A DNA stretch of 43,306 nucleotides from a virus (Duplodnaviria; Heunggongvirae; Uroviricota; Caudoviricetes). The notes under the pieces were generated by a model. The model worked only from the letters and a program-made list of their open reading frames with translations. It searched no databases and had not been told where the DNA came from. The stretch lies in IMG/VR virus record IMGVR_UViG_3300025133_000025, one strand, 5' to 3'. Below, one piece after another: positions 13,379 to 36,307 of this stretch (positions are counted from its first letter, which is position 1; every line of letters starts with the position of its first letter). Both the position numbers and the translations under genes were made by a program.

Positions 13379-13584
13379 GTTAAATCGTCAAAGGAATCAT
13401 CATCTAGGTCGACATCACTTGATTCGTTTGCATCATCAATTAATTGCGGATACAGTTCACCATCAACAGCATTATAACGAACACTTCGCAAGTATTCAGA
13501 TACGTCGGTTCCATTTAGCAGTGCGCTCTGCAGCGCTAAAACAAATTGTGCTGTCGCCTCTGACGATAGCTTTAAGTCAGTCAT
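13375..13584 (-). CDS. Small acidic hypothetical protein
   Basis: 69 aa, D/E-rich C-terminus; 4-nt overlaps with both neighbours. Confidence 0.4.
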   Translation of the reverse strand: MTDLKLSSEATAQFVLALQSALLNGTDVSEYLRSVRYNAVDGELYPQLIDDANESSDVDLDDDSFDDLT

Positions 13585-13931
13585 TCTTTAAGTCCTGGTA
13601 GAGAATCTAAATCTTCTGGGTTATCAAAACAAAAACCCTTATCATCAATGTATATGTCAGCTGACACTTTCCCAAAAAAGATTGAATCATAGGGCACATC
13701 CCATTCATCCATTTGGGAAAGTGTCAGCTCTTTAATTGCTTCTGGAATATTCTTTACATTATCTTTTGTTCGGCCCATTCCTCGAGCCGTTTGTAGTTTT
13801 ATTGTGTTCCCTTTATTATAAAGAGCCCGCATTCGCTCAATAACAGCCTCATTTGGCACAGAATTTTCATAATTGCTGTCCTTTGTAGCACAAACAACTC
13901 CATCAATGTCAAAACAATAGGTTTTAATCAT
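13581..13931 (-). CDS. HAD-superfamily phosphatase, GmhB-like (heptose 1,7-bisphosphate phosphatase type)
   Basis: 116 aa. HAD motif I CFDIDGVVC (DxDGV) near the N-terminus and IYIDDKG late; small size and context beside heptose kinase/nucleotidyltransferase genes. Confidence 0.55.
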   Translation of the reverse strand: MIKTYCFDIDGVVCATKDSNYENSVPNEAVIERMRALYNKGNTIKLQTARGMGRTKDNVKNIPEAIKELTLSQMDEWDVPYDSIFFGKVSADIYIDDKGFCFDNPEDLDSLPGLKE

Positions 13932-14380
13932 AACGTAGTCCCCCGCATTATGCGGTATGAGTCCTCATCAAAGTGTTCTGTGGAGAACTCGAATAGCTCC
14001 AGACCGCTGCGAGAGATGATCTGGTGCACAGTTCTGGGTGGAATTGGGATGATTTCGCCCGCAAATAGCGGTATAACCTGCAAATCTAAAATTTCTTTTG
14101 CCCTCGACCACGTATCAGTGAACTCTGTTCCTTTGAGGCTATCGATGCGCAAACCCTTCGGGAAATGAACATCAAGTTGGCCCGGGGCAAATTGTCGAGA
14201 AATAAGAAGAAGGCCCTCACCGCCCTGGATGTAAAATGTCTCGTTCTTCTTCTCATGATAATGAAGAGAACACTTGGTGCCAGGACTAAATACAAGCTTT
14301 TTACCGCAGTAAAGAGACGAATTTGCCGCCCAAAGCTCATAGCCCCACCCCTTTGCTACACGCACTGGTTCAAACGTCAT
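13928..14380 (-). CDS. Cupin-fold protein (possible sugar-phosphate isomerase/epimerase)
   Basis: Cupin motif HYHEKKNETFYIQGGEG. The likely start is the internal Met (MTFEPVRVAKGWGYELW) at 14380, which is preceded by AAGGA; the longest ORF extends to 14452 and would overlap the kinase gene by 83 nt. Confidence 0.45.
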   Translation of the reverse strand: MTFEPVRVAKGWGYELWAANSSLYCGKKLVFSPGTKCSLHYHEKKNETFYIQGGEGLLLISRQFAPGQLDVHFPKGLRIDSLKGTEFTDTWSRAKEILDLQVIPLFAGEIIPIPPRTVHQIISRSGLELFEFSTEHFDEDSYRIMRGTTL

Positions 14381-15293
14381 TTGATGTCCTTGGTAAGGCA
14401 ACTGCCTTTGTTGCAGCAGCCTCAGCAATTCGAGCGGCCCATTTAAAATCATCCTGAAATGTCAAAGCATACGCGAACACCGCTGTCACTACATCACCTG
14501 CTCCGACAACACTTCTTACTGGTCCAGCTGTTGTTTTTAGGCGCTCAGTTTCATTACCCAACTCAAATACTGCTAGGCCATCAGCTCCCATTGAAACAAT
14601 TGCAACAGGGATGTCTTGTTTATTATCTAGAGCAGTCCACTCTGCAAAATTTACTGTAATATACACATCAAAATCACGTGATAGAAAACCATCATAATCT
14701 TGAAAATTAGCTTTCTTGGTATCAATTACAATTTTTGCTGTTTCTGGAAGGCGGGTGGCAATCTCATCAATGAGCTCACGTGTAACAATTCCCTTTGCAT
14801 AATCAGACACGATTACTACATCTGCTATATCAAGAATATTACATTTCTGCGCATTCATAGATTTCACTGACTGCAGAACAAGATTACTATCTTGCGGTGA
14901 GAATGACTTACCGGTGTCAACACGAAGAAGTGTTACGTCACCATTCATATAACGTGTCTTCAACAGCATCTTGTCGATTTCGCCGTCTATAAACATAACT
15001 GTTGGAGCTAGATATCGCAAGTGACTATTTACAGGGCCAATGAAACTTGTTGAGCAATGAAGCCTGCTAATTATTTTTGCAACGTTTGCAGCTCCGCCAG
15101 CCTGCTCTACAGTGTCATTGACATCAAGCAGTAGGCTCGGGGCTTCAGGGTTCACCCTGCTTACGTCACCGTAAATGTAGCGATCAACCATTGGATCACC
15201 GATAACAACAACATTAGGCATTAATACGCCCGCGAATTGCTGTTGAACTAAATCCCTCGACTGTTGGAAAAATTGCGATTGACGCATATTCAT
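14370..15293 (-). CDS. hldE: D-beta-D-heptose 7-phosphate kinase-like (HldE/RfaE domain I, PfkB family)
   Basis: VVVIGDPMVDRYIYGDVSRVNPEAPSLLLDV matches the RfaE domain-I N-terminus (VLVVGDVMLDRYWYG...EAPVPV); GAGD near the C-terminus is PfkB motif 2. The start was chosen at the Met about 20 aa before the motif; the longest ORF runs to 15356. Confidence 0.65.
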   Translation of the reverse strand: MNMRQSQFFQQSRDLVQQQFAGVLMPNVVVIGDPMVDRYIYGDVSRVNPEAPSLLLDVNDTVEQAGGAANVAKIISRLHCSTSFIGPVNSHLRYLAPTVMFIDGEIDKMLLKTRYMNGDVTLLRVDTGKSFSPQDSNLVLQSVKSMNAQKCNILDIADVVIVSDYAKGIVTRELIDEIATRLPETAKIVIDTKKANFQDYDGFLSRDFDVYITVNFAEWTALDNKQDIPVAIVSMGADGLAVFELGNETERLKTTAGPVRSVVGAGDVVTAVFAYALTFQDDFKWAARIAEAAATKAVALPRTSNDV

Positions 15294-15726
15294 GTCCAAC
15301 AACATCTTCTGGTTTATAATCACCACCTTTAACGATGATATCAGGTTCAACAGCAAGAATAAGATTTAATGGTGTGTCTTCACTGAAGGGAATCGTTACA
15401 AGATATTTTACTGGGTTGGTCGCAATGTTTTCAATCATGAAACATCTTTCATCAATTGGCACAAAGGGCCGATCGCTACCTTTGTAGCGGCGCACACTGC
15501 TATCACTGTTTACACCAACAACTAATGCGCCATATGGGCCTGCAAGCGCCGCGGCATATTGAATAATCTTTACATGGCCAGGATGTAGAATATCAAAGCA
15601 CCCATTTGTAAATACAACTCGTGATGGTAGAGGAATTCTGCGAAGTTGTACAATCTTTTGCTCCAGTGAATATCCTGTTCTTGGCTTAATAGCTGTAGCA
15701 TAACTTTTCTTTACTCTACGATCCAT
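15214..15726 (-). CDS. Heptose 1-phosphate adenylyltransferase-like (RfaE domain II, cytidylyltransferase fold)
   Basis: VVFTNGCFDILHPGHVKIIQYAA is a near-exact RfaE-II / HIGH-motif nucleotidyltransferase signature. Confidence 0.7.
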   Translation of the reverse strand: MDRRVKKSYATAIKPRTGYSLEQKIVQLRRIPLPSRVVFTNGCFDILHPGHVKIIQYAAALAGPYGALVVGVNSDSSVRRYKGSDRPFVPIDERCFMIENIATNPVKYLVTIPFSEDTPLNLILAVEPDIIVKGGDYKPEDVVGHEYASIAIFPTVEGFSSTAIRGRINA

Positions 15727-16325
15727 GCGATTTGGCCCCCCTTTTCATGGGCAGAGGCAAACAGTGGTTCGATACCAATCGCGTTGAAGTACTCCTGCAC
15801 CAGCTCAGGCTTGCTTGCTCCCTCGCGGTGGTAGTCGTCAACCATGACGATGACAGCACGAGGGAAGCGGCCAGTTACGACGGGCCAGATGGCTGTCAGC
15901 TCCTTGAGGTGGTGAATCGCAGCGGCTTGGCCCTCCAGGGGGTTGTAATCGTAGGAATCGAGGTATACGAGGTCAGGAAGTGTGCCCTGGGCCGCGATTC
16001 TGTGCAGTTCTGCCACGGAATCCGCAGTAATTGCGGTTACGTATTTGGAATCGCACACCTTTCGGGCAAGCTCAGTAGCTGCCGGATCGATGTCAATTGT
16101 GATCACCTGGCCGCCCGTTTGGGCCACGAACCACTCCCAAACACGTGTAGACTGCCCGTCCCACGTCCAATTATCATACTGGCGCACGGTTCCTGTCTCG
16201 ATGATGATATGACCAGTATCTCGCTCTTCTAACATAGCAGCAATGGCCTTACGAAACGTAGCAAATCTACGGCCTAAGCGCTTATCCATGAAAAACTTGT
16301 CATACTCTGCAAGAATGTTGGTCAT
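15711..16325 (-). CDS. Class I SAM-dependent methyltransferase, TylF/macrocin-O-methyltransferase-like (Methyltransf_24)
   Basis: 204 aa; IIETGTVRG glycine-rich SAM motif I; overall resemblance to TylF-type sugar O-methyltransferases; it lies in the GC-rich island. Confidence 0.45.
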   Translation of the reverse strand: MTNILAEYDKFFMDKRLGRRFATFRKAIAAMLEERDTGHIIIETGTVRQYDNWTWDGQSTRVWEWFVAQTGGQVITIDIDPAATELARKVCDSKYVTAITADSVAELHRIAAQGTLPDLVYLDSYDYNPLEGQAAAIHHLKELTAIWPVVTGRFPRAVIVMVDDYHREGASKPELVQEYFNAIGIEPLFASAHEKGGQIAWIVE

Positions 16326-16372
16326 CCTGCCTCCAATATGTACATTGTATCACGCAGTTAAGGGCGTGGAAC

Positions 16373-16780
16373 CTATTTTGCGGCTGCAGCCAGAGCGCTG
16401 GACGACTGGACCTTGCCACCGCGACCGACATTCCAGAGGAGACCCACATTCATGTCGTTACAGAGGTTGACCTCAGGCGTGTTGTCGCTGACACGATCTC
16501 CACCATTGGCGAAGTAGTCAGGCTTGAACCGCTTGATTGCGTCACAGGCAGTGTCATCAGAGTCGTCAAAGGCAACCACCTGTGAGACGCCGCGGATGGC
16601 CATCAGAATCTCCTTGCGCTCTTCAAACGGCATGAAAACGAAGCCCTTCTTGCGGAGCAGCCATGCGTCTGAATTGAGGGCGACAATCACCGGGCCCATC
16701 CGGTTCGCCTGCAGGATCATCCTCACATGCCCGATGTGAATTGGGTCGAAGCCTCCGGATACCATGATTCGCTCATTCAT
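16373..16780 (-). CDS. Cytidylyltransferase-fold nucleotidyltransferase (second RfaE-II/TagD-like paralog)
   Basis: MVSGGFDPIHIGHVRMIL is a HIGH-motif nucleotidyltransferase signature; 135 aa; GC-rich codon usage unlike the 15214 copy. Confidence 0.6.
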   Translation of the reverse strand: MNERIMVSGGFDPIHIGHVRMILQANRMGPVIVALNSDAWLLRKKGFVFMPFEERKEILMAIRGVSQVVAFDDSDDTACDAIKRFKPDYFANGGDRVSDNTPEVNLCNDMNVGLLWNVGRGGKVQSSSALAAAAK

Positions 16781-16791
16781 CTCAACACTCT

Positions 16792-17043
16792 CTATTCTGG
16801 CACAAAGCAGAAGCGCATGACGGGGACCAATCGATCACCCTTCTCGTACATGTCAAAGTTTGACGTGCTCTTGCAGAAGAGCTTCCCCCGGAGGCCGGCA
16901 AAAGCCCTCTCATCTCCGGGCCAGGCGTACTCTGACGTGAGATGGCGTGATACCTCACCATCAAGAAACTGCGGTGTCTCTACCTCAACCACCTCGATGC
17001 CAGGGTAATCCGCGAAGAACGCTCTAACTTCGTCAACCGTCAT
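16792..17043 (-). CDS. Hypothetical protein
   Basis: 83-aa ORF in the GC-rich island; 4-nt overlap with the upstream gene. Confidence 0.35.
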   Translation of the reverse strand: MTVDEVRAFFADYPGIEVVEVETPQFLDGEVSRHLTSEYAWPGDERAFAGLRGKLFCKSTSNFDMYEKGDRLVPVMRFCFVPE

Positions 17044-17315
17044 GGGCGGTTGGCGTCCATCTCCGCCAGCAGCTCATCAGCGTCGTAGCCACACATTGGG
17101 GCGGCATCACGAATCTGCTTCTCGGTGATCTTTCCATTGACGAATGGCAACACGACTAGGGTCTCGCCATCCTCGGCGAGTAGAAATACTCCCCCGCCTC
17201 GCTCCTTGAAGAGCGCCTGCATGTTGTTCCAGCCTGGGATAGGTTCTTCAGTTGCCAAGGGAAAAAGCCCTTCTGGTGTGCACTGGATGCTGTCCAGTGA
17301 ACTCGTAGATGCCAT
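17040..17315 (-). CDS. Hypothetical protein
   Basis: 91-aa ORF, co-directional and tightly packed. Confidence 0.35.
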   Translation of the reverse strand: MASTSSLDSIQCTPEGLFPLATEEPIPGWNNMQALFKERGGGVFLLAEDGETLVVLPFVNGKITEKQIRDAAPMCGYDADELLAEMDANRP

Positions 17316-18048
17316 AATCGCCCGTAGTGGTGGCTTTTCCGTCCTCTACAGCCCAATCGTAGGTGAATTCCCGGTCTCCGAACCGTGTATTCCACCAATC
17401 GATCTTGGACTGGATACGCTCTGGAGGCCGCATAAATGAGTAGTGGAAGTAGGAAATCGGCAGCTTGAGGTGCTGCGCGTTGCCCGAGAACCATCCAGCG
17501 TACTCCCAATCCATGTAGTTGTCGTTTACGAAGCGGCAACCAGGCGTCATCCTGAAGAAGCGAGGAAATTCATGCCACGTGTACGTGTCGAAGTCGTTCA
17601 CGAACGTCCTGGACTTGACGTGCACGCAGTCGACAGGAGTCACGTCCAGATTCCTTGTCAGGACCTTAGCAGCAATGGCCAGCTGGTCATCCTCCCACAC
17701 CTCATCGCCATCAACGATGAAGAGATAGTCCTCAACGCCATCACCGAAGTTGCAGAGGTTGTCACGAATGTAGTTCAGGCCCGCGTTTCGCTGGTGTGTG
17801 TCAGACTCCTGGTTGGTCTGCAGCATGGCCACCTTGTCGTGTGCCTCAGCAGCATCGACAATGCTCATGATGAGACCAACGGTGCCATCAGTGGAGCGAG
17901 CGGAGCGTCCAATGCGGATGAACTCCTGGTACGCACCTTCCACGATCGTGATGGAGGCGACGTGGGGCGACTCGATCATTGCTGGAAGGGAGGCAGGAAT
18001 GAACTCCGCCTCGTTGTACACTGTCATGAGAACGTGGATTCTAGCCAT
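17248..18048 (-). CDS. Glycosyltransferase family 2
   Basis: N-terminal VLMTVYNEAEFI (GT2 signature) and a DXD motif, FIVDGDEVW. Confidence 0.6.
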   Translation of the reverse strand: MARIHVLMTVYNEAEFIPASLPAMIESPHVASITIVEGAYQEFIRIGRSARSTDGTVGLIMSIVDAAEAHDKVAMLQTNQESDTHQRNAGLNYIRDNLCNFGDGVEDYLFIVDGDEVWEDDQLAIAAKVLTRNLDVTPVDCVHVKSRTFVNDFDTYTWHEFPRFFRMTPGCRFVNDNYMDWEYAGWFSGNAQHLKLPISYFHYSFMRPPERIQSKIDWWNTRFGDREFTYDWAVEDGKATTTGDYGIYEFTGQHPVHTRRAFSLGN

Positions 18049-18280
18049 TTTCTGCGGCCCTTCGCATTGCGTCCCACTCCTGCCCAGCAGTAAACATCAT
18101 TGTCGCCAGCAGAGTGTTTGACAAGCCAAACTCATCAAACTCTTCAGCGACACTCATGACAAATTTGGCCTGCATGTCTGGGGCGTCCATGACCATTGTC
18201 TGGCCGCTCTTGAATTCTGCGTAAACTGCCCTCATGTTGCGGCACAATATTTCGTAAGCGATTACTTCTGCATTATCCAT
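18041..18280 (-). CDS. Hypothetical protein
   Basis: 79-aa ORF overlapping the GT2 start by 8 nt. Confidence 0.35.
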   Translation of the reverse strand: MDNAEVIAYEILCRNMRAVYAEFKSGQTMVMDAPDMQAKFVMSVAEEFDEFGLSNTLLATMMFTAGQEWDAMRRAAENG

Positions 18281-19094
18281 CTTCTACCCAGAGAATGTCA
18301 TTGATCTGGCCAGTCTTGGGGAGCTCAATTGTCTTCAAGACCTCACCATTCATTGTAACCAAATGTAGGTGAGATGGAACCTCACCATGCCTCTCGCCTC
18401 GTGAAGCGCGGAAACTTTCACCAACCCAGAGGTTCCCATTGGGGAGCTGGGCAATGCCACGAATGAAGCCAGACAGCTTGACGAGTGGCTCATGGCCGCC
18501 GACGAGCCAGACCTCGCTGTCGTGAGACGAGCAGTAGGCGATGGTGCCATCGTGGAGGACTTCGATGTCGTGGGTGTGCGTTCCACCCTGGCTGACTGGA
18601 TGCATCTCGCTGATCTGGATGACGTCACCATGCGAGGCTTCGTCAATCCAGCTCCAGGGGATGAGCCCAATCTGACTTGTCTGCCCGCGGTTGTTGAGGC
18701 CGACCATGAGGCCATGCTCAGTCGCCGCCAGGGCGTTGATGTGGTTGATGTCAGCTCGGCGCTGGCCAATGTTGATCCGCCACTCTCTTTCCACTTCCGC
18801 CACTACGATGGAGTTGTCCTTCGTGCTCGTGAGGAACATCTGGTTGGCTTGCCTGAAGGCGATTTGGTGGCAGTCCAGCACATTGGGAATCCGGATGAAC
18901 ACCGCAGGGTCGTCGCTGGAGTAGATCCGCACGCCTGTGGCACCCTCATCACGACCTGTCGCAGCTACAACACCGGAGTCGTCTGTGATCAGACCAAACC
19001 AGTTGCTGCAATTGCTGTCATGGAAATAGAGCTCCGCCCGCGTTCCTTCATCATTTACCTGGAGGACGCCGGCGGTTGTTGCTACATAGAGCAA
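18273..19094 (-). CDS. Hypothetical protein, possibly beta-propeller fold
   Basis: 273 aa with repeated short beta-rich segments and H/D-rich motifs (THTHDIEVLHDGTIAY, NGNLWVGESF); no confident family assignment. Confidence 0.4.
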   Translation of the reverse strand: MLYVATTAGVLQVNDEGTRAELYFHDSNCSNWFGLITDDSGVVAATGRDEGATGVRIYSSDDPAVFIRIPNVLDCHQIAFRQANQMFLTSTKDNSIVVAEVEREWRINIGQRRADINHINALAATEHGLMVGLNNRGQTSQIGLIPWSWIDEASHGDVIQISEMHPVSQGGTHTHDIEVLHDGTIAYCSSHDSEVWLVGGHEPLVKLSGFIRGIAQLPNGNLWVGESFRASRGERHGEVPSHLHLVTMNGEVLKTIELPKTGQINDILWVEDG

Positions 19095-19097
19095 GCT

Positions 19098-19352: not shown

Positions 19353-19363
19353 CTTTGTGTCTC

Positions 19364-20269
19364 CTAGTTTTCAAGTGCTGCAACAATTCTGTTGACAACA
19401 CGTTCTGGTGTATAAGTAGCCGCAATCTTGCTTGCAGGCCCAAGATCCCACTCAAAATGACTCTGTATAAGGGCTTCAACTACGCTAACAAAATCTTCGA
19501 TATTATCTGGCTCAAACATTGGAATAGTATCACCCCACACTTCTTGCATCACGGATGTAGCAGCTACAACAGGAACTGCTCCACACAAAACAGCTTCAAT
19601 CGGGATAAGGCCTAGACCCTCGCGCACTGAAGGGGCGAGCACGCACTTGGACGCACAGAGTATGTTCGTCAGTGACATGCTATTCAAAAAGCCTAGGCCG
19701 CGGGCGCAGCCGTACTTTCCTGGCTTAATTGCTGGGCCTGCGACCATATATGTAAAGCTCTTATCATAGATAGTATTCAGCGTTCTTACAGTTTCCTCAG
19801 CTAGTCGAAACCTCTTTGCTTCATCTTCAAGACGACCATAGGAAAAAAAGTCAGCTGTGCCACGTGGAATCTTTCCAGCGATTGCAGAAGCAACCGTGAG
19901 GTTCACGTTGACTGGGTCACCCACTACGTGATATGCTCCTTCATAGCCCAACTCACGAATCTGCTTACCCACAAATTCAGTATTAACAAGAACGCAATCA
20001 GCAAGATCGAGGCGCCACATATGCTCCTTAGCTCTTGCGTCTTCAGCCTCTGCAGCCCAATTCATATCGAGCACTTTAGCTACAACCTTTGTCTTTCCTT
20101 GCAAAATTGCAGTATTGTACTTCACATCAAGCAATGCTTGGGGATCATGGCAGTATACCCAATCGGCTTCACTACTATCTGTAGCAAGCATTCCGCGTTT
20201 ATGCAGCTCAGTAGCCAATGTTGGTACCTGCCCCCAAGGGCCTGCAAACCCTGTTAACTTAATCTTCAT
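19364..20269 (-). CDS. Glycosyltransferase family 4 (GT-B, group 1)
   Basis: LAPSVREGLGLIPIEAVLCGAVPVVAAT matches the GT4 E-x7-E region (PSxxEGFGLxxLEAMAxGxPVIAT). Confidence 0.55.
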   Translation of the reverse strand: MKIKLTGFAGPWGQVPTLATELHKRGMLATDSSEADWVYCHDPQALLDVKYNTAILQGKTKVVAKVLDMNWAAEAEDARAKEHMWRLDLADCVLVNTEFVGKQIRELGYEGAYHVVGDPVNVNLTVASAIAGKIPRGTADFFSYGRLEDEAKRFRLAEETVRTLNTIYDKSFTYMVAGPAIKPGKYGCARGLGFLNSMSLTNILCASKCVLAPSVREGLGLIPIEAVLCGAVPVVAATSVMQEVWGDTIPMFEPDNIEDFVSVVEALIQSHFEWDLGPASKIAATYTPERVVNRIVAALEN

Positions 20270-20838
20270 CTATGATCCTCAAATTTATAACCAAAATATT
20301 CAAAATCTTCTGCAAAGCGGTCATAGATAATTCTTATTAAATCATCACTATCATAGTAGAGGCTATAATGTGGAAGCCTTTTACTCGCGACTTTATTATT
20401 ATTTTTGTGTGGCAACAAAGTTGTTATACCAATCGCTTCACCAGCAATGGCCCAATCAGCTGTAAGGTTTTCAAACCTCCCAATAAAATCTGCTGCTATT
20501 TCTCCACTGTTGTCGCGAAAGAAATCTAGCTGATGTTGCTTCTCTGTTGGATGAACCTGAAAGGTGGTGGTGTGTTTAAATGCATGCACAAAATCATGAA
20601 ATGTATTTTTCTTGTGCAGGCCTTTTCGATTAGCGTACAATGATACAGCGCGATCAAACGGATTCCTAACAAAGCCAAATTTATAAAAGCTTGAAAATTC
20701 TTCAGCAGTTATTTCACTTTGATATTGTTTTAGATCTTTGTGGGGATTTTTCTCATCACCAAGAATTGTGCGTATTGATTGTGATGCTGTTTTTGGAACA
20801 GCTACAAAAATAGTCCTATGCTTATAATTAACGCTCAT
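20266..20838 (-). CDS. Carbohydrate sulfotransferase (Sulfotransfer_2-like)
   Basis: 5'-PSB-like VAVPKTASQSI and 3'-PB-like RNPFDRAVSLY motifs; 190 aa. Confidence 0.55.
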   Translation of the reverse strand: MSVNYKHRTIFVAVPKTASQSIRTILGDEKNPHKDLKQYQSEITAEEFSSFYKFGFVRNPFDRAVSLYANRKGLHKKNTFHDFVHAFKHTTTFQVHPTEKQHQLDFFRDNSGEIAADFIGRFENLTADWAIAGEAIGITTLLPHKNNNKVASKRLPHYSLYYDSDDLIRIIYDRFAEDFEYFGYKFEDHR

Positions 20839-23800
20839 CGAGAAAGCCTCGAATACTTTGTGCCAGTCATGATTTCAGGCTGCTTGAAGCCCATACGCTC
20901 TAAATCATACTTTGGATAAACCACTTCTTCACCAATCCCAGCGAACTCATGACCAACCCGGAAGATTGTATTTGCAAGCTCTGCAATCTCTTCATCAGTT
21001 ACGTCATTCCAGTCCTTATCCTTGAAAAATCGCTTCTTGCCTTGCTCTTGCTCAAGATAGAGGCATGACCATTGCTTATCCCACATATCACGAAATTGCT
21101 TAACTTTCGCAGGGATGTCAGCCCATGAATAATGCCACACGCATGGCATATCTTCGATGATTCGCTGCACAACACTCTCATATGCAATTGGATCTGTCAG
21201 GCGCAAGCGTTCAATATCAGCTGTCCAGAAATTTTGTGTCGGTGTTGATTGATAAGTATACGAATTAACATACTCACATCCATCACTCATGCCTGTTGCA
21301 GCATAAATTCTGCCATCAGGAGCCTGCCGACGTGCTCCAGCGTTAATTCCGTGTGTAATTAATGGATCGTTCTTGGAAAGGCGCCACTTCCATAGGTGCC
21401 TATCTCCACGGAGGTGCTTAGTGTCGCCCCAAAGTTCAACAACAGGCAACGCAAGGACACCAAAATCAGAAGAAAACGTCTTTGTTAGCTTCTTAATCTT
21501 AAGATAGTCATTTTCGTGCACAATTTCGTCACCATCCATTTGCCAGAGGTAGTCTCCTGTGCATAAAGCACGTGCAAATGCCTTCTGTTGGCCATCAATG
21601 CCTGGCTCGTTGAAGTCCCACTCCTTTTGATAAAGTTGTACTCTATCATCATTTCCGAACGCTTCTTGCAGTTTTTCCCATGTTCCATCGGTAGAAATGC
21701 CATCTACTACAACAACTTCATCACAGAAGCCCAGCATTGATGTAATTGACTGTTCAAAAGGGTACTTCAGGGCATTAAATGTTGTTGTATAGCCTGAAAT
21801 GGACGGAAACTGCTCTTCAAACGGTTTTCTTAAAACGGCCAGTACTCTGTCATCGGGCTGCACATCCAAACTAACTGCGGGTTCCCAGATATCCATCACA
21901 TTGTTATACACAGTAGCAGCTGCAATGTTGTTAATACAAGGATTGTCTTTATCAACAACACACTGGTCCTTGTAGCAGGGTGCTGCGCAACCCTTTCGGT
22001 CAACTGCTTCAATAATAGTAAGCCTGTCAGAACCATATTCTGTATGGATCAATTTGCCAGTACACTCAGGGTTTGATGATCCAAAAAGCGCAACGCCAGG
22101 CACATCAAGGTGATTTGCGACGTGCATCGGGAATGAATCAATTCCTACAAATGCTGTTGCATCACCAATGATTCCGGCAGCTTCTGTAAATGTTGTTTTT
22201 CCGCGTAGGTCTTCCACACTGCGATACTCTGGATCGTCAGGGCCACCAATTTGAACAACCCTGACACCATTTGATCTAAGATTATCAATGACATCTTGCC
22301 AATAAGCATAGTGGCGTGCATGACCCTTCTTATAGCCTGGATGAATCACTACATATGGCGAAGCATTGCTAAAACCTTCCAGGGGATCAGTCACAATCCT
22401 GGGAAGAAGAGGGCCAGGCTCGAGACCGCAGTGCGCTGCAAACTCTTCAGCCAGATGCCGCTTGTTTCTGCGGTTGACCCAATTTGAGCCCTGATACTGG
22501 ACAAACAGGTCTGGTGTGTACACTTCGTCCCAAATCTTATTTGTCAGGTCTGGTGTATGCATCCACGGCTGGAATTCAATCCAGTTATACCCAAGATCCT
22601 TAACTACACCCTTGAAAACTGGTTTTGTGGCGATATAGGCTTCAACAGCATCTGCAGCTAGGCCAGTATCACTTATGAGATTATCAATCACACCAGTTGA
22701 TAAGAAGATGTCACCAGCAGATTGCGGCATGGTATAAAGAATCTTATGTTTGTCACCTGGAAGTATGTTATTTGCTACCCAATATTCAACACTGTTTTTC
22801 TGGAAAAACTCATGCGCAGATGCCTGCACTAAGTCAACAAATTTTCTGCCCAGTACCCCTGGATTATAATTTTCTGCAATTTCCTTACTGAGCTTTTTTG
22901 CCCATGCGGTGGGTGTTGAAGCTTTGCTATAGAAGCGACGCATGATAATCTTGGCATCGTCCAATGACGGCTCTGCCCACATTACACCCTCAGGGATAAC
23001 GCCTTGCCAAACGAATGATGCAGGAACTGGCACAGGTGTAACAGGAACTGGTAACCAACGACGCTTTGCTTCACCAAGAAATGTAAGGTGTCCTGACCAG
23101 TTAGTCGCAATTACAGGAAGTCCGCATGCAGCAGCTTCAATAATCGGCAAACCATATCCTTCACCGTGCGTTAGTGAAACAAATGCTTTAATCTTGGGAT
23201 GGTTGTAAAGTGCAGCAAGCTCTTTATCTGTTGCAAAACCAGAAACAAGATAGAGCTTACACTTTGGCTCATGGCCAACTTGCTGAGTAATCTCTTTTAC
23301 CAGAAGTTCTTTAAGTTCTGCTAATCGTGCTTGCACAATAAAGCGATCTGGAATACTATTTCGAATTGCCGCAATCTTAAGAACTAAACCAACATCTTCG
23401 TCATTATGAAACTCTTCATAGAAAGCTTTAATTGTGTTGGTGATATTCTTTCTATCCTGCCCAAAATTAACGTTTACACCCCACTGGCCAACAACAAGAA
23501 AATTAAAATCTGTTGAAAACAGTTCATCTGTAATAGATTCTGCTTGGGCACCAGGGAAAAAAGTATCAATCTTAACAGATTCTTCTACAATTACAATTGG
23601 TGTTGTAATTTGAATCTCATGCTCTTTACCAGCTTTATGATCGTAAACCTCATACCTAGTCTGCTCCATGACATTCTTGGAATGTTCTGACGGAACAACA
23701 ATCAGGTCCATTAGATTACACTGTGGAATCCACTCAGGCGCAATTCTATCAGTCTCGATTCCTGCAGTTACACCGATATTGAATTTTGCCCGACGGGCAA

Positions 23801-24077
23801 ATTCATTTGGAATCGTCACCTGCACAGACACATCAAACACAGCGTTAAACTGGTCTTCTGCTACCTGTGATTTAAGATTCTCCATCTTCCCGCATGCATT
23901 TGCATATCTGCTAAAGGCATGATCAGTGACGGGCAGCCAACTGCATTGTCCCCACGGAATTTGGTCAGCATATATGTCATACTGGCCTGCTTCCATCAAC
24001 GCATCAAGAATCTGGCGGGCGTGAACGCCGTAGCCGCTTGCTGTTAAAACTGGTCCGCGAAAATGCAGTCGTGTCAT
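20835..24077 (-). CDS. Multidomain glycosyltransferase: GT4 + GT9 (ADP-heptose heptosyltransferase-like) + GT2-like
   Basis: 1080 aa. GT4 motif FVSLTHGEGYGLPIIEAAACGLPVIATN. GT9 C-terminal motif AAGIIGDATAFVGIDSFPMHVANHLDVPGVALFG (compare GNDSGPMHLAAALGxPxVALFG). GT2-like segment with VVVVDGISTDGT and DGDEIVHEND (DXD). Confidence 0.65.
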   Translation of the reverse strand: MTRLHFRGPVLTASGYGVHARQILDALMEAGQYDIYADQIPWGQCSWLPVTDHAFSRYANACGKMENLKSQVAEDQFNAVFDVSVQVTIPNEFARRAKFNIGVTAGIETDRIAPEWIPQCNLMDLIVVPSEHSKNVMEQTRYEVYDHKAGKEHEIQITTPIVIVEESVKIDTFFPGAQAESITDELFSTDFNFLVVGQWGVNVNFGQDRKNITNTIKAFYEEFHNDEDVGLVLKIAAIRNSIPDRFIVQARLAELKELLVKEITQQVGHEPKCKLYLVSGFATDKELAALYNHPKIKAFVSLTHGEGYGLPIIEAAACGLPVIATNWSGHLTFLGEAKRRWLPVPVTPVPVPASFVWQGVIPEGVMWAEPSLDDAKIIMRRFYSKASTPTAWAKKLSKEIAENYNPGVLGRKFVDLVQASAHEFFQKNSVEYWVANNILPGDKHKILYTMPQSAGDIFLSTGVIDNLISDTGLAADAVEAYIATKPVFKGVVKDLGYNWIEFQPWMHTPDLTNKIWDEVYTPDLFVQYQGSNWVNRRNKRHLAEEFAAHCGLEPGPLLPRIVTDPLEGFSNASPYVVIHPGYKKGHARHYAYWQDVIDNLRSNGVRVVQIGGPDDPEYRSVEDLRGKTTFTEAAGIIGDATAFVGIDSFPMHVANHLDVPGVALFGSSNPECTGKLIHTEYGSDRLTIIEAVDRKGCAAPCYKDQCVVDKDNPCINNIAAATVYNNVMDIWEPAVSLDVQPDDRVLAVLRKPFEEQFPSISGYTTTFNALKYPFEQSITSMLGFCDEVVVVDGISTDGTWEKLQEAFGNDDRVQLYQKEWDFNEPGIDGQQKAFARALCTGDYLWQMDGDEIVHENDYLKIKKLTKTFSSDFGVLALPVVELWGDTKHLRGDRHLWKWRLSKNDPLITHGINAGARRQAPDGRIYAATGMSDGCEYVNSYTYQSTPTQNFWTADIERLRLTDPIAYESVVQRIIEDMPCVWHYSWADIPAKVKQFRDMWDKQWSCLYLEQEQGKKRFFKDKDWNDVTDEEIAELANTIFRVGHEFAGIGEEVVYPKYDLERMGFKQPEIMTGTKYSRLSR

Positions 24078-25345
24078 ACCTCAAAAACCTCAAGCTGTGT
24101 AGTGCGCTCACCATGTGTAACAACAGTTCGTTGAATTGCTGCATCCCACTTGCTAATCATTGTATCAATATCAAAGCGACGGCGGGCAGAGGCAGCAGCC
24201 TCAATGCCCATTGCTTTAAATTCTTCTGGACCATCATTCCACATATTGTACATGTATTCCATGGCATCACAAATTTGCTCATGCGATACATTATCTTCAA
24301 AGACATATGGAACAGGCTGCGTGCCAACGCAAGAAACTGCGGCAGGCCGTAAAAGAAGACCATTCAGTTTTCCAGTCTCCTTATCAGCTAACTGCTCTGT
24401 CATTCCGCCTGTCATTGTTGCAACAACAGGATTACCCGCCATCAGGCTTTCCAGTACAGACAGGCCAAAGCCTTCGGCATTTGAAATGTTGAATGTCACG
24501 TCAGTGGCGTTAATGAGATCGTTTATCTGCTCGCGGGACACAAAATTTGATGAAAGAATAACATCATCCTGCAATCCCAAGCGCTCTACGACGTTAATAA
24601 GATTTGGTCCCTCTTGGTCAAGAGGATTTGTATGCAAGAAGAGTTGAACCTTTCCCTGCACACCATCGACAGTGTCAATAAATTCACGAAATCCGAAAAG
24701 CAAGTCAGACGCTTTCTTGCGGCGGGCATTGCGGTTCATCCAGAAGATTGTGAATTTATCCTTATTTGGTCCAAGAATTTGAGCCCTGAGCTCACTTCTA
24801 CGTTCATCAGGGAGTCGCTTGAAGAGATCACTGGGTACTGCATGCGGCATGTACTCTGCGCGCTCAGCAAATCCAAGCTCTTCGACGACGGAGTGTGTAA
24901 GCTTGGAGATACACCCGATGAAGTCTGTTGACTCGTAAAAAGGCTTGTTGAATTCGGGAGCCGGGTTGTTATCCCAGACGTGCCAATAAAGGAGTGGTGC
25001 CACTGCTCGTACTTCATTTTCCATCTCCCAAAGCCATACGTAGAAACGTGGATCTGTGATGAACAAAACAGCATCAGGCCTGAAGTTCATGAGCATTGTT
25101 CTGATTACATTGGGGTCGCCGTAATTATTTACGGGATGCACAATCAGATCAGTCCCAAACTCTGGACTCTGGGTCGGTGTATAATCTCGATGAGCCTTCG
25201 CGCCTCCGAGATTCAAAACACTATAGCGTCCTGTTTTTACTAGACCCTCTGCAAGTAATTTTGCTTGCGTTCCAACACCTGAGGGTGATTCAATATGATC
25301 GCTAATTAAAAGCAATCGTGTCTTAGGCTGTTCTGTCATACTCAT
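24074..25345 (-). CDS. Glycosyltransferase family 4
   Basis: FNISNAEGFGLSVLESLMAGNPVVATMTGG matches the GT4 E-x7-E motif; 423 aa. Confidence 0.65.
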   Translation of the reverse strand: MSMTEQPKTRLLLISDHIESPSGVGTQAKLLAEGLVKTGRYSVLNLGGAKAHRDYTPTQSPEFGTDLIVHPVNNYGDPNVIRTMLMNFRPDAVLFITDPRFYVWLWEMENEVRAVAPLLYWHVWDNNPAPEFNKPFYESTDFIGCISKLTHSVVEELGFAERAEYMPHAVPSDLFKRLPDERRSELRAQILGPNKDKFTIFWMNRNARRKKASDLLFGFREFIDTVDGVQGKVQLFLHTNPLDQEGPNLINVVERLGLQDDVILSSNFVSREQINDLINATDVTFNISNAEGFGLSVLESLMAGNPVVATMTGGMTEQLADKETGKLNGLLLRPAAVSCVGTQPVPYVFEDNVSHEQICDAMEYMYNMWNDGPEEFKAMGIEAAASARRRFDIDTMISKWDAAIQRTVVTHGERTTQLEVFEV

Positions 25346-31144: not shown

Positions 31145-31294
31145 GTCCTGAAACGGAGCAATTGCTGGCCATTTTAAAAGAAATTGCCAGTACGGGTGAT
31201 TTACAAGAAGTTTATGATATTATGCCTGACTGCGGAGCTCCGCTGGACGCGGCGGTATGGAATTGGATTGAGGCAGGTTGCCCAGACGCTGATT
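31141..31294 (+). CDS. Possible small ORF (GTG start)
   Basis: GTGA overlap with the preceding stop; 51 aa ending at the TAG at 31292-31294, convergent with the kinase operon end. Confidence 0.25.
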
Positions 31295-35806: not shown

Positions 35807-35814
35807 GGTCTAGC

Positions 35815-36299: not shown

Positions 36300-36307
36300 G
36301 CCTGACA

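What the first reader, a model, noticed from the sequence alone, without database searches (positions are those of the whole stretch)
13581..25345. Phage-borne heptose-glycan toolkit: nucleotide-heptose pathway, a GT4-GT9-GT2 fusion, sulfotransferase and methyltransferase
The motifs indicate these enzymes:
- HldE/RfaE domain-I kinase
- two RfaE domain-II nucleotidyltransferase paralogs
- a GmhB-like HAD phosphatase
- a GT9 ADP-heptose heptosyltransferase signature (GIDSFPMHVANHLDVPGVALFG) fused between GT4 and GT2-like domains in a single 1080-aa protein
- two more GT4s and a GT2
- a CHST-like sulfotransferase
- a TylF-like sugar O-methyltransferase

No GmhA-like SIS isomerase is seen, so sedoheptulose-7-P isomerisation presumably relies on the host.

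Such a set could build a methylated and/or sulfated heptose-containing glycan. Candidate targets are the host surface (superinfection exclusion or receptor masking), virion proteins, or conceivably DNA. Sulfotransferases and tri-domain GT fusions are rare in phages.
Basis: partly seen in the sequence, partly recalled or inferred. Interest (0 to 1): 0.65.

Follow-up and report, generated by a model that had tools for sequence, protein, structure and literature searches.

The report
Phage heptose-glycan gene island
A large uncultured marine phage carries a tightly packed operon that can make an activated seven-carbon sugar and build a methylated, sulfated glycan from it.

Summary
Window 13581-25345 (minus strand) is one compact operon of 16 ORFs, 11 with a glycan-related assignment. 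It encodes:
- a PfkB kinase, closest to HldE domain I;
- an HldC-like nucleotidyltransferase;
- a small HAD phosphatase;
- a metal-binding cupin;
- a second cytidylyltransferase;
- a class I methyltransferase;
- a Sulfotransfer_2 enzyme;
- two GT4s and a weak GT2;
- a DUF4915-like protein;
- a 1080-aa GT4-GT9-GT2 fusion.

It is phage DNA, not host DNA. It lies on ~175-179 kb contigs from several samples, between baseplate/sigma-factor genes and nuclease genes.

The interpretation needs four corrections:
- The missing isomerase is probably the cupin, a D-lyxose/D-mannose-isomerase relative. It travels with the kinase, nucleotidyltransferase and phosphatase in cyanophages that lack GmhA, and it is strongly linked to GT9.
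- The fusion is not a rarity. More than 500 metagenomic homologues were found; the best 120 listed are full-length, many on 140-210 kb contigs.
- The island sits in a conserved slot (PD-(D/E)XK nuclease, GT4, GT4) with variable sugar cargo.
- DNA is an unlikely target.

No membrane, flippase or polymerase genes are present, so I favour cytoplasmic glycosylation of a phage-encoded acceptor such as a virion protein. The target is not shown.

The parts
13581..13931 (-). Small HAD-superfamily phosphatase (116 aa). Proposed heptose-1,7-bisphosphate 7-phosphatase.
   Evidence: TIGR01689 EcbF/BcbF capsule phosphatase 1.7e-13; phrog_1238 1.2e-22. DxD motif FDIDGV and IDD are visible in the translation. 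37-40% identical to the cyanophage cassette gene.
13928..14380 (-). Metal-binding cupin (150 aa). Proposed sedoheptulose-7-phosphate to D-glycero-D-manno-heptose-7-phosphate isomerase, replacing GmhA.
14370..15221 (-). PfkB-family sugar-phosphate kinase (283 aa). Proposed heptose-7-phosphate 1-kinase.
   Evidence: PfkB 1.2e-17. TIGR02198 rfaE_dom_I 1.5e-39, 136 bits, below the 345-bit equivalog cut-off. GAGD motif in the translation.
15214..15726 (-). HldC-like nucleotidyltransferase (170 aa). Proposed heptose-1-phosphate nucleotidyltransferase.
   Evidence: CTP_transf_like 1.3e-15. TIGR02199 rfaE_dom_II 1.4e-36. Best PDB match 5x9q at 6.6e-23. CFDILHPGH motif.
15711..16325 (-). Class I SAM-dependent methyltransferase (204 aa), probably a metal-dependent O-methyltransferase acting on the sugar.
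   Evidence: No significant Pfam hit of its own. Homologues carry PF13578 Methyltransf_24. AlphaFold pLDDT 92.9. Foldseek matches COMT, MnmM, TrmR and MycE. Adjacent to the heptose cassette also in relative L011.
16373..16780 (-). Second cytidylyltransferase-fold enzyme (135 aa). It may activate an alcohol phosphate (ethanolamine-P, glycerol-P or similar) rather than heptose.
   Evidence: CTP_transf_like 4.5e-13. PDB: ethanolamine-phosphate cytidylyltransferase 1.9e-13 and TagD 3.2e-8. Homologues of 53-61% identity lie outside the sugar island in about 18 marine relatives.
16792..17315 (-). Two small ORFs (83 aa, and 72-91 aa) of unknown function inside the GC-rich stretch.
   Evidence: No family hits. 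Called as genes on L001.
17248..18048 (-). GT2-like (GT-A) protein, 266 aa; weak assignment.
   Evidence: Glycos_transf_2 E 0.0016, 18.8 bits, below the 23.3 cut-off. A 66.5% identical homologue lies next to the methyltransferase and heptose cassette in L011.
18041..18280 (-). 79-aa ORF of unknown function.
   Evidence: No family hits.
18273..19094 (-). DUF4915-like protein (273 aa). A real family, linked to glycan synthesis by a domain fusion.
   Evidence: 92 cluster representatives at E<=1e-3. 8 of 23 homologues hit PF16261 DUF4915. In one 1761-aa homologue this domain is fused to GT9, a GT and methyltransferase domains.
19098..19352 (-). 84-aa basic protein with three PEPVEAK repeats; function unknown.
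   Evidence: Translation. 21-bp x 3.2 tandem repeat at 19214-19281.
19364..20269 (-). GT4-type glycosyltransferase (301 aa).
   Evidence: Glyco_trans_1_4 1.2e-8; Glycos_transf_1 1.3e-7.
20266..20838 (-). PAPS-type carbohydrate sulfotransferase (190 aa).
   Evidence: Sulfotransfer_2 1.3e-17, 65.2 bits. phrog_3347 2e-16. PKTAS and RNPFDRAVS motifs in the translation. Only 4 phage records carry a homologue.
22818..24077 (-). Fusion protein, domain 1 (residues ~1-420): GT4. It is the lineage-conserved anchor glycosyltransferase.
   Evidence: Glycos_transf_1 2.6e-9. Present in 78 of 78 related loci. 36% identical to stand-alone genes in phages Mel-JY01 and immuto. HGEG...E motif invariant.
21888..22790 (-). 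Fusion protein, domain 2 (residues ~430-730): GT9, heptosyltransferase family.
   Evidence: Glyco_transf_9 4.9e-15, 55.9 bits against a cut-off of 22. PDB WaaF (1psw) 2.3e-5. Invariant G455-D456 and D647...H652.
20838..21845 (-). Fusion protein, domain 3 (residues ~745-1080): GT2 (GT-A) plus a conserved C-terminal extension.
   Evidence: Glycos_transf_2 4.9e-8. Invariant D848, D850 and E851.
24074..25345 (-). GT4 glycosyltransferase (423 aa), the second lineage-conserved anchor enzyme.
   Evidence: Glycos_transf_1 1.5e-13. Present in 77 of 78 related loci at 36-45% identity.
25736..26614 (-). PD-(D/E)XK nuclease. It is the conserved neighbour that marks the slot and is probably not part of the glycan chemistry.
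   Evidence: PDDEXK_1 1e-13. Next to the anchor GTs in 69 of 78 loci and in Mel-JY01 and immuto.

Best explanation
This is the sugar island of a ~175-179 kb marine myovirus distantly related to Flavobacterium phage immuto and Microcystis phage Mel-JY01.

Two glycosyltransferases are fixed in the lineage, always next to a PD-(D/E)XK nuclease gene. One is a 423-aa GT4. The other is a second GT4, which here is fused to GT9 and GT2 domains. Downstream of them the cargo varies from phage to phage.

In this phage the cargo is a self-sufficient nucleotide-heptose module. The proposed steps are:
1. The cupin isomerises sedoheptulose-7-phosphate to D-glycero-D-manno-heptose-7-phosphate. This step is inferred.
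2. The PfkB kinase makes the 1,7-bisphosphate.
3. The small HAD phosphatase removes the 7-phosphate.
4. The HldC-like enzyme makes NDP-heptose. Steps 2-4 are inferred from homology.
5. The GT9 domain transfers the heptose.

The GT4 and GT2 domains and the additional GTs add other sugars. The methyltransferase and the PAPS-type sulfotransferase tailor the glycan. The second cytidylyltransferase may add a phospho-alcohol group.

All locus proteins are predicted soluble, and no lipid-carrier, flippase, polymerase or ligase genes are present. I therefore infer that the glycan is assembled directly in the cytoplasm on a phage-encoded acceptor, most likely virion proteins. The variable cargo would then give different phages different surface glycans. 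The target is the least certain step.

Operon structure:
- Most neighbouring ORFs overlap by 4 to 23 nt, and the largest gap is 47 nt.

Phage origin:
- Baseplate wedge protein 31-32% identical over its full length to Mel-JY01 and immuto.
- The exact 1080-aa fusion protein occurs on 8 contigs from different samples, up to 175,726 bp in the loci fetched and 179,159 bp on record.

Conserved slot:
- The order nuclease, GT4, GT4 occurs in immuto and Mel-JY01 and in 69-78 of 78 IMG/VR loci.
- The cargo differs between loci: dTDP-sugar genes, radical SAM, transaldolase sets and others.

Fusion family:
- 555 hits. The best 120 are ~1030-1180 aa with the same three Pfam domains.
- Catalytic motifs are invariant in all three domains.

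Cupin as the isomerase:
- Best solved relatives are D-lyxose/D-mannose isomerases and phosphomannose isomerase.
- Metal ligands are invariant.
- The same four-gene cassette occurs in P-SSM2 and Sf-CH8.
- SIS-type GmhA was found in only 13 phage records, none of them a cyanophage.
- Cyanobacterial LPS lacks heptose (PMC4515613).
- The cupin is present in 18 of 22 GT9-positive loci against 5 of 56 GT9-negative loci, p = 8e-10. After de-replication, p = 1.5e-7 at 90% identity and 6e-4 at 70%.
- In four marine loci a stand-alone GT9 directly adjoins the cassette.
- In soil and freshwater relatives the cupin sits next to transaldolase, RpiB and PfkB.
- Saccharibacteria have the order GT4, GT9, cupin, PfkB.

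Soluble machinery:
- No transmembrane proteins in the locus, and no polytopic membrane protein in the window.

Against a DNA target:
- Immuto DNA analysis.
Against: - No enzyme activity or glycan has been measured.
- The kinase and nucleotidyltransferase score below NCBIfam equivalog cut-offs, so the substrate could be a hexose such as mannose.
- In Binataceae genomes the cupin sits next to GDP-mannose dehydratase and not next to heptose genes. Only 6 of 80 cellular loci have a kinase nearby and none has GT9 by the same search. Some family members are therefore probably phosphomannose isomerases.
- Most GT9-fusion loci from soil and freshwater lack a nucleotidyltransferase and a phosphatase within 10 kb.
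- The GT9-cupin association is partly phylogenetic. It is not significant at a 60% clustering level.
- Nothing in the sequence identifies the acceptor.
- The anchor locus is not next to structural genes in immuto or Mel-JY01.
Confidence: 0.5

Rival explanations
1. The island remodels the host cell envelope during infection. It would add heptose and other sugars, methyl and sulfate groups to LPS core, O-antigen or capsule. The benefit would be receptor masking or exclusion of competing phages.
For: - This is the usual reading for similar genes in cyano- and pelagimyophages, where glycosyltransferases and rfaE lie in the 'host recognition cluster' next to tail fibre genes (PMC7029224).
- The best solved relative of the GT9 domain is the LPS heptosyltransferase WaaF.
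- The locus lies about 1.5 kb from a sigma-factor gene and a few kb from baseplate and tail genes.
Against: - No initiating phosphoglycosyltransferase, flippase, polymerase, ligase or ABC exporter is present. No polytopic membrane protein occurs in the 43-kb window.
- The two anchor GTs are conserved across phages from marine, freshwater and soil samples. Their cultured relatives infect Flavobacterium and Microcystis. A host acceptor would have to be conserved across very different envelopes.
- The heptose cassette occurs in cyanophages whose hosts' LPS lacks heptose (PMC4515613).
Confidence: 0.3
2. The cassette makes an activated hexose, for example NDP-mannose by the route fructose-6-P, mannose-6-P, mannose-1,6-bisP, mannose-1-P. 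Alternatively, the cupin is a nucleotide-sugar epimerase and not the first-step isomerase. In that case heptose synthesis, if it occurs, still depends on a host GmhA.
For: - The kinase and nucleotidyltransferase fall below equivalog cut-offs.
- Cupin relatives in Binataceae adjoin GDP-mannose 4,6-dehydratase.
Against: - The best family matches of the kinase and nucleotidyltransferase are the heptose enzymes (rfaE dom I, dom II and HldC).
- The cassette is tightly linked to GT9 domains and, in relatives, to transaldolase, which supplies sedoheptulose-7-phosphate.
- The highest sequence identities among the fold matches are to aldose-ketose isomerases, at 28-31%.
Confidence: 0.15
3. The glycosyltransferases hypermodify the phage DNA with a complex glycan to evade restriction.
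For: - Phage GTs can build glycans on DNA (Pyle et al. 2024, as cited in PMC12619734).
- The anchor GTs always sit next to a nuclease gene.
- There are weak hits to the 'GT4-conflict' Pfam family.
Against: - Phage immuto has the homologous anchor locus plus further GTs. Its digested DNA showed only dA, dC, dT and fdPreQ1 (PMC10516641).
- No hydroxymethylase-type gene was seen in the ORFs scanned.
- Seven or so GT domains plus methyl and sulfate tailoring exceed any known DNA glycan.
Confidence: 0.04
4. The region is host DNA carried by a defective prophage, or an assembly chimera.
For: - The composition is mosaic. GC is 0.54-0.56 at 15.7-19.4 kb against about 0.42 overall, and 0.36 for the sulfotransferase and the phosphatase.
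Against: - Phage genes flank the region on both sides.
- The same arrangement is found on independent assemblies from different samples.
- The slot is syntenic in 78 viral contigs and two cultured lytic phages.
- The GC-rich genes have 67-69% identical homologues, at ordinary GC, in the same order in a related phage contig.
Confidence: 0.01

Closest known systems
ADP-L-glycero-beta-D-manno-heptose pathway and LPS inner-core heptosyltransferases of Gram-negative bacteria (GmhA, HldE or HldA+HldC, GmhB, HldD; WaaC/WaaF)
   Same: It has a PfkB-type kinase, an HldC-type nucleotidyltransferase, a HAD phosphatase and a GT9 transferase. The order of the chemistry is probably the same.
   Different: - No SIS-type GmhA; a cupin is there instead.
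- The phosphatase is a 116-aa TIGR01689-like protein, not GmhB.
- No HldD epimerase, so the product would be the D,D-heptose.
- The kinase and transferase are separate and divergent.
- GT9 is fused between a GT4 and a GT2.
- There is no link to lipid A-core genes.
Carbohydrate ('LPS') gene cassette of T4-like cyanophages, e.g. P-SSM2 PSSM2_309-312 and Sf-CH8 gp156-161
   Same: The same four genes (nucleotidyltransferase, PfkB kinase, small HAD, cupin) are adjacent, at 26-40% identity.
   Different: - It is a different phage lineage (Kyanoviridae).
- The gene order of the HAD and the cupin is swapped.
- There is no tri-domain fusion.
- In the records the genes carry misleading names: 'phosphoheptose isomerase' for the HAD and 'cysteine dioxygenase' for the cupin.
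- I found no paper characterising the function in the library searches I ran.
Mycobacteriophage virion glycosylation (Freeman et al. 2023, as cited)
   Same: Phage-encoded glycosyltransferases modify phage structural proteins in the cytoplasm, without lipid-carrier machinery.
   Different: - Here the target is not shown.
- The island is much larger.
- It includes its own nucleotide-sugar pathway and a sulfotransferase.
- It is not adjacent to capsid or tail-tube genes in the cultured relatives.
Chlorovirus PBCV-1 capsid glycosylation, including the three-domain enzyme A064R (from my own knowledge, not checked here)
   Same: A virus-encoded multi-domain glycosyltransferase, with methylation, builds a virus-specific glycan on a structural protein.
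   Different: - The host is eukaryotic.
- The domains are unrelated in detail (two rhamnosyltransferases plus a methyltransferase).
- No heptose is involved.
- Only one chlorovirus GT (B736L) appears among weak PDB hits of the 423-aa GT4.
Host recognition cluster of pelagimyophages and cyanomyophages (PMC7029224)
   Same: It is a hypervariable region with tail fibre genes, many glycosyltransferases and rfaE-type genes.
   Different: - That cluster belongs to T4-like phages and was interpreted as O-chain modification.
- Here the slot is anchored by two conserved GT4s and a nuclease, in a different myovirus lineage.
Cupin-type aldose-ketose isomerases (D-lyxose/D-mannose isomerase 2y0o and 7nzo; archaeal phosphomannose isomerase 7zvm and 7zvy)
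   Same: Single cupin barrel, His-His-Glu-His metal site, and 28-31% identity in structural alignments. The chemistry gives the manno/lyxo configuration at C2.
   Different: - It is a distinct, tightly conserved family of ~110-150 aa with extra invariant residues (K27, K45, S133, T134, R143) that could bind a phosphate.
- The substrate has not been tested.

Membership tests
ADP-heptose pathway (GmhA/HldE/GmhB/HldD) | SIS-domain sedoheptulose-7-phosphate isomerase (GmhA) | tested here: not met
   No SIS hit in any locus ORF, nor in any non-overlapping window ORF of 150 aa or more.
ADP-heptose pathway (GmhA/HldE/GmhB/HldD) | PfkB-type heptose-7-phosphate 1-kinase (HldE domain I / HldA) | tested here: inconclusive
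   The best NCBIfam match is TIGR02198 at 1.5e-39, but 136 bits is below the 345-bit equivalog cut-off. The substrate is not testable here.
ADP-heptose pathway (GmhA/HldE/GmhB/HldD) | Heptose-1-phosphate adenylyltransferase (HldE domain II / HldC) | tested here: inconclusive
   TIGR02199 1.4e-36, but 125.5 bits is below the 181.5 cut-off. The best solved relative is 5x9q at 6.6e-23.
ADP-heptose pathway (GmhA/HldE/GmhB/HldD) | GmhB-type HAD phosphatase | tested here: not met
   No GmhB model hit. The protein is 116 aa and matches TIGR01689 (EcbF/BcbF) below its cut-off. HAD catalytic motifs are present.
ADP-heptose pathway (GmhA/HldE/GmhB/HldD) | HldD (SDR) 6-epimerase | tested here: not met
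   No epimerase or SDR domain in the locus. Relatives L008 and L010 do have one next to the fusion.
Glycosyltransferase family 9 | Match to the GT9 model above the curated threshold, with conserved catalytic and donor-binding motifs | tested here: met
   PF01075 55.9 bits against a cut-off of 22. G-D in the N-terminal half and D-x4-H in the C-terminal half are invariant across 21 family members. It aligns to the WaaF donor-binding region. Calling these residues catalytic rests on my recollection of E. coli WaaC.
Glycosyltransferase family 9 | Use of ADP-heptose as donor | not testable with these tools
   Supported only indirectly, by linkage to the kinase/cupin cassette.
GT4 (Glycos_transf_1) | Model match above threshold, with the E-x7-E region | tested here: met
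   Fusion N-terminus 37.3 bits, 423-aa protein 51.1 bits and 301-aa protein 31.8 bits, against a cut-off of 26.4. HGEGxGLPxxEA is invariant.
GT2 (Glycos_transf_2) | Model match above threshold, with a DxD motif | tested here: met
   Fusion C-terminal domain 33.5 bits against 23.3. D848-x-D850-E851 is invariant. The separate 266-aa protein does not meet the threshold, at 18.8 bits.
Sulfotransfer_2 (carbohydrate sulfotransferases) | Model match above threshold, with 5'-PSB and 3'-PB PAPS-binding motifs | tested here: met
   PF03567 65.2 bits against 22. PKTAS and RNPFDRAVS were read in the translation. The motif assignment rests on my own knowledge.
TylF-family sugar O-methyltransferases (PF05711) | Match to the TylF model | tested here: not met
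   No TylF hit even at E<=10. Homologues carry Methyltransf_24. The fold is class I SAM methyltransferase, with COMT best and MycE at rank 24.
Cupin aldose-ketose isomerases (D-lyxose/D-mannose isomerase, type-II-like PMI) | Cupin barrel with a His-His-Glu-His metal site and sequence relationship to the isomerases | tested here: met
Cupin aldose-ketose isomerases (D-lyxose/D-mannose isomerase, type-II-like PMI) | Isomerase activity and substrate (sedoheptulose-7-P versus fructose-6-P) | not testable with these tools
   Only context is available. It is linked to GT9, PfkB and transaldolase in phages and Saccharibacteria, but to GDP-mannose dehydratase in Binataceae.
Lipid-carrier polysaccharide pathways (Wzx/Wzy, ABC-transporter or synthase dependent O-antigen/capsule) | Initiating phosphoglycosyltransferase, flippase or exporter, polymerase or ligase (polytopic membrane proteins) | tested here: not met
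   No such Pfam hits. A hydropathy scan finds no polytopic protein in the locus or the window.
Phage virion glycosylation systems (mycobacteriophage type) | Glycans attached to capsid or tail proteins | not testable with these tools
   No virion data exist for this lineage in the sources searched.

The most novel reading that the evidence does not exclude
A widespread lineage of large uncultured phages decorates its own virions with serotype-like, variable glycans. These would be built from a conserved two-GT4 core. In this phage and its relatives the heptose would come from a portable five-gene module (nucleotidyltransferase, kinase, phosphatase, cupin, GT9). In that module a cupin-fold enzyme is a previously unrecognised sedoheptulose-7-phosphate isomerase that replaces GmhA. 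The same module would explain the long-unexplained 'LPS genes' of marine cyanophages whose hosts have no heptose.
Probability: 0.25. Interest if true: 0.8.

Novelty: new variant of a known kind. Interest (0 to 1): 0.6.

Why it matters
Phage glycosyltransferase clusters are usually written off as 'LPS modification genes'. Here the comparative data give three concrete, testable points.

1. A candidate new enzyme family for the first step of heptose synthesis. It would make phage heptose synthesis independent of the host and would correct widespread misannotation.
2. A conserved, undescribed three-domain glycosyltransferase that marks a large group of uncultured 140-210 kb phages.
3. A conserved slot with variable cargo, resembling bacterial O-antigen loci. 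This suggests that phages of this lineage diversify a surface glycan.

If the glycan is on the virion, it bears on how marine phages evade defence, adsorb, or persist. Two cultured relatives, immuto and Mel-JY01, make that testable.

Tried and rejected
- Nucleotide search of the island against 50,697 phage records: no match.
- Protein search of the 1038-aa tail protein: no match.
- 'Moraphage' lineage paper (PMC12619734): four core GTs are reported, but the genomes are 200-307 kb and I could not link that lineage to this one.
- Promoter and terminator scan of 12-28 kb: counts are not above the shuffled expectation, so no operon boundaries could be drawn.
- tRNA scan: none found, so no host clue.
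- Look-up of the ORF at 38686-39681: not on record. It is probably not the true frame.
- DNA-glycosylation reading: set aside on the immuto DNA data.
- Protein heptosyltransferases of the TibC/Aah type did not appear among solved relatives of the GT9 domain at E<=1, so no specific link to protein heptosylation could be made.
- Cellular genomes were searched for the cupin, to see whether the whole cassette exists in bacteria. Most hits (Binataceae) have a different context, which weakens rather than strengthens the heptose reading for the family as a whole. Only Saccharibacteria showed the order GT9, cupin, PfkB.
- The sulfotransferase has no solved sequence relative at E<=0.1.

Full report
**1. 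What is there**

The interval 13581-25345 holds 16 ORFs, all on the minus strand. Together with the two ORFs that follow (to 26614) they form a very tight array. Most neighbouring ORFs overlap by 4 to 23 nt, and the largest gap is 47 nt. In the direction of transcription the genes are:

| Coordinates | Product | Main evidence |
|---|---|---|
| 25736-26614 | PD-(D/E)XK nuclease | |
| 25323-25739 | 138-aa ORFan | |
| 24074-25345 | GT4, 423 aa | Glycos_transf_1 1.5e-13 |
| 20835-24077 | 1080-aa fusion | Glycos_transf_1 (residues 278-342), Glyco_transf_9 (571-676, 4.9e-15, 55.9 bits against cut-off 22), Glycos_transf_2 (774-861) |
| 20266-20838 | Sulfotransfer_2 | 1.3e-17 |
| 19364-20269 | GT4, 301 aa | |
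| 19098-19352 | 84-aa basic protein with three PEPVEAK repeats | |
| 18273-19094 | 273-aa protein | see below |
| 18041-18280 | 79-aa ORF | no hits |
| 17248-18048 | weak GT2-like protein | 18.8 bits, below cut-off |
| 16792-17315 | two small ORFs | no hits |
| 16373-16780 | cytidylyltransferase-fold protein | |
| 15711-16325 | 204-aa protein | see below |
| 15214-15726 | nucleotidyltransferase | rfaE_dom_II 1.4e-36 |
| 14370-15221 | PfkB kinase | rfaE_dom_I 1.5e-39 |
| 13928-14380 | cupin | |
| 13581-13931 | 116-aa HAD phosphatase | TIGR01689 1.7e-13; phrog_1238 |

**2. Items that needed more work**

- *The 204-aa 'methyltransferase'.* It has no significant Pfam hit of its own. Its homologues carry Methyltransf_24 and source names such as 'predicted O-methyltransferase YrrM'. 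An AlphaFold model (pLDDT 92.9) matches class I SAM methyltransferases. COMT, MnmM and TrmR come first, and the sugar O-methyltransferase MycE is at rank 24. It is therefore a methyltransferase, but 'TylF-like' is not supported at family level.
- *The second nucleotidyltransferase.* Its best solved relatives are ethanolamine-phosphate (1.9e-13) and glycerol-3-phosphate (3.2e-8) cytidylyltransferases. The first nucleotidyltransferase instead matches 5x9q at 6.6e-23. I recall 5x9q to be Burkholderia HldC, and that identification is from memory.
- *The 273-aa protein.* It belongs to a real family of 92 cluster representatives. Eight of 23 members hit DUF4915. In one 1761-aa member the domain is fused to GT9, another GT and methyltransferase domains. 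This ties it to glycan synthesis by domain fusion.

**3. It is phage DNA in a conserved slot**

The evidence for a phage origin is as follows.
- The flanks encode a baseplate wedge protein, a lectin-domain tail protein, a sigma factor, the nuclease and an exonuclease.
- The baseplate protein is 31-32% identical over its full length to those of Microcystis phage Mel-JY01 (190 kb) and Flavobacterium phage immuto (160 kb).
- The exact fusion protein occurs on 8 contigs from different samples, up to 175,726 bp in the loci fetched and 179,159 bp on record.

The slot itself is conserved.
- In both cultured relatives the order is the same: nuclease, GT4, GT4 (homologous to the N-terminal third of the fusion), GT2, methyltransferase, then other sugar genes.
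- Among 78 IMG/VR loci retrieved with the fusion family, the anchor GT4 domain is in 78, the 423-aa GT4 in 77 and the nuclease in 69. The downstream cargo differs between loci.
- Examples of other cargo are dTDP-sugar genes, radical SAM and ATP-grasp enzymes. Another set is a second GT9 with class II aldolase, RpiB, PfkB, transaldolase and the cupin.

The host-DNA and defective-prophage alternative is therefore rejected.

**4. The fusion is a family, not a one-off**

- No sequenced phage has a full-length homologue.
- The metagenomic protein search found 555 hits. The best 120 are about 1030-1180 aa, 39-43% identical, and carry the same three Pfam domains. Many sit on contigs of 140-210 kb.
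- An alignment of 21 members keeps the signature residues of all three domains invariant: HGEGxGLPxxEA in GT4; G455-D456 and D647...H652 in GT9; D848-x-D850-E851 in GT2.
- All three domains therefore look catalytically competent.
- In IMG/VR, 18 of the 78 loci have the fused form, and the rest have the GT4 domain alone.

**5. The heptose module and the cupin**

A 150-aa cupin sits between the kinase and the phosphatase. Several lines point to it as the isomerase.

- *Conservation.* Its family is tightly conserved, with invariant H40, H42, E47 and H119. This is the classical cupin metal site. K27, K45, S133, T134 and R143 are also invariant.
- *Cyanophage cassette.* The same four genes are adjacent in T4-like cyanophages such as P-SSM2 (PSSM2_309-312) and Sf-CH8, at 26-40% identity.
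- *No GmhA in those phages.* A search with E. coli GmhA found SIS-type homologues in only 13 of 50,697 phage records, none of them a cyanophage.
- *Hosts without heptose.* Cyanobacterial LPS is reported to lack heptose (PMC4515613).
- *Linkage to GT9.* The cupin is present in 18 of 22 loci with a GT9 domain against 5 of 56 without, Fisher p = 8e-10. The kinase is present in 12 of 22 against 2 of 56, p = 1e-6. After de-replicating the loci by anchor identity, the cupin association remains at p = 1.5e-7 (90% clusters) and 6e-4 (70% clusters). It is lost at 60%, where only 9 clusters remain.
- *Adjacent stand-alone GT9.* In four marine loci without the fusion (L044, L046, L052, L058), a stand-alone GT9 gene directly adjoins the four-gene cassette.
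- *Transaldolase neighbours.* In soil and freshwater relatives the cupin lies next to transaldolase, the enzyme that makes sedoheptulose-7-phosphate.
- *Saccharibacteria.* A Saccharibacteria genome has the order GT4, GT9, cupin, PfkB.
- *Literature.* Two full-text searches, 'sedoheptulose 7-phosphate isomerase' with 'cupin' and 'GmhA' with 'cupin', found no paper making this link.

Against this reading:
- In Binataceae genomes the cupin sits between a GT4 and GDP-mannose 4,6-dehydratase, with no heptose genes nearby. Some members are therefore probably phosphomannose isomerases.
- The kinase and nucleotidyltransferase score below NCBIfam's equivalog cut-offs.

I rate 'the cupin is the first-step isomerase of a heptose pathway' at about 0.55. 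A hexose (mannose) version or an epimerase role are the alternatives.

**6. What the glycan is put on**

- None of the 18 ORFs from 13581 to 26614 has a transmembrane segment, and the 43-kb window holds no polytopic membrane protein.
- No initiating phosphoglycosyltransferase, flippase, polymerase, ligase or exporter was found.
- A DNA target is unlikely. Immuto has the homologous anchor locus plus more GTs, and LC-UV-MS of its DNA showed dA, dC, dT and fdPreQ1 only (PMC10516641).
- That leaves host envelope molecules at the inner face of the membrane, or a phage-encoded soluble acceptor.
- The two anchor GTs are conserved across phages from marine, freshwater and soil samples, whose cultured relatives infect a flavobacterium and a cyanobacterium. 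A conserved phage-encoded acceptor is therefore the more economical inference. This is inference only.
- Virion glycosylation by phage GTs is established in mycobacteriophages (Freeman et al. 2023, as summarised in PMC12619734).
- The common reading for marine myophages is O-chain modification (PMC7029224), and it remains a serious rival.

**7. Composition**

- The stretch 15.7-19.4 kb has GC 0.50-0.56, against about 0.42 for the window outside its two GC-rich stretches. The sulfotransferase and the phosphatase are at about 0.36.
- A related contig (L011) has the GT2-like gene, the methyltransferase and the four cassette genes in the same order. They are 41-76% identical at protein level but have ordinary GC of 0.40-0.46.
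- The GC-rich block is therefore the same gene set, probably acquired by exchange with a higher-GC relative, and not a set of unrelated foreign genes.

**8. Rarity claims**

- The sulfotransferase has homologues in only 4 phage records: phiRSL1 (two records), one uncultured huge phage and Stenotrophomonas DLP_6. That claim holds.
- The tri-domain fusion is rare only among cultured phages.

**9. Verdict**

The finding is real and mostly correctly read. It is a new variant of a known kind, namely phage-encoded glycan gene clusters. Three undescribed features stand out:
- a conserved GT4-GT9-GT2 enzyme family;
- a conserved slot with variable cargo;
- a candidate cupin replacement for GmhA.

The target of the glycan is open.

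Noticed in passing
window 35910-40190 (+ strand): A GC-rich stretch (0.60-0.67 against about 0.42) holds four paralogous small genes. All begin MAK(K)NRWNPSSKVNCNH... and they lie at 35910-36299, 36557-36967, 37188-37622 and 39795-40190. I did not scan three of the four + strand frames against any family library; the one scanned, 37142-37627, had no Pfam hit. The long minus-strand ORFs listed there are probably not genes.
   Followed up: partly
window 35401-35482 and 35701-35823: There are two tandem repeats: 28 bp x 2.9 (98% matches) and 36 bp x 3.4 (90% matches). They lie at the 5' end of the nominal 508-aa ORF 34280-35806. Its repetitive N-terminus (GRRPCGKI...) looks non-coding, so the true start is probably downstream.
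   Followed up: no
window 31293-35806 (- strand): Three adjacent ORFs of 435, 324 and about 508 aa lie here. Two have faint protein-kinase-domain hits (Pkinase 3.3e-5 and 1.1e-6, below threshold). The third ends in a kinase-like motif (HxDLKxxN). This may be a set of phage protein kinases.
   Followed up: no
L005 (P-SSM2) 7713-8394; L004 (Sf-CH8) 9582-10257; PHROGs phrog_1238 and phrog_7851: The annotations in public records are misleading. The small HAD phosphatase is called 'phosphoheptose isomerase'. The cupin is called 'cysteine dioxygenase', or in Sf-CH8 'putative nucleotidyltransferase'.
   Followed up: yes
window 15700-19400 compared with L011 225-1909: The window's GT2-like and methyltransferase genes have GC about 0.54-0.55. 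Their 67-69% identical homologues in a related contig have GC 0.40-0.46. This points to allelic exchange between related phages of different base composition.
   Followed up: partly
L041, L043, L054, L057, L060, L062, L064, L073, L075, L077, L088 (about 1-5 kb in each locus): Homologues of the second cytidylyltransferase (53-61% identical) sit at a conserved position 5-9 kb upstream of the nuclease in many marine relatives. That is outside the sugar island. In the window the gene is inside the island.
   Followed up: partly
P0405 (1761 aa): A giant multidomain protein combines GT9, a Glyco_trans_1_2 domain, SAM methyltransferase domains, TPR repeats and the DUF4915-like domain. It links DUF4915 to heptosyltransferase chemistry by domain fusion.
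   Followed up: no
window 13052-13584 and 12361-13116 (- strand): Two small conserved ORFs (69 and 108 aa) and a sigma-70-region-2 protein follow the island directly. The same order recurs in relative L011. The sigma factor matches phage late sigma factor families (phrog_234, phrog_1740).
   Followed up: partly
L096 4600-8495 (Binataceae chromosome): Cellular members of the cupin family sit between a GT4 and GDP-mannose 4,6-dehydratase. This suggests a small cupin phosphomannose isomerase in polysaccharide loci of Binatota.
   Followed up: partly
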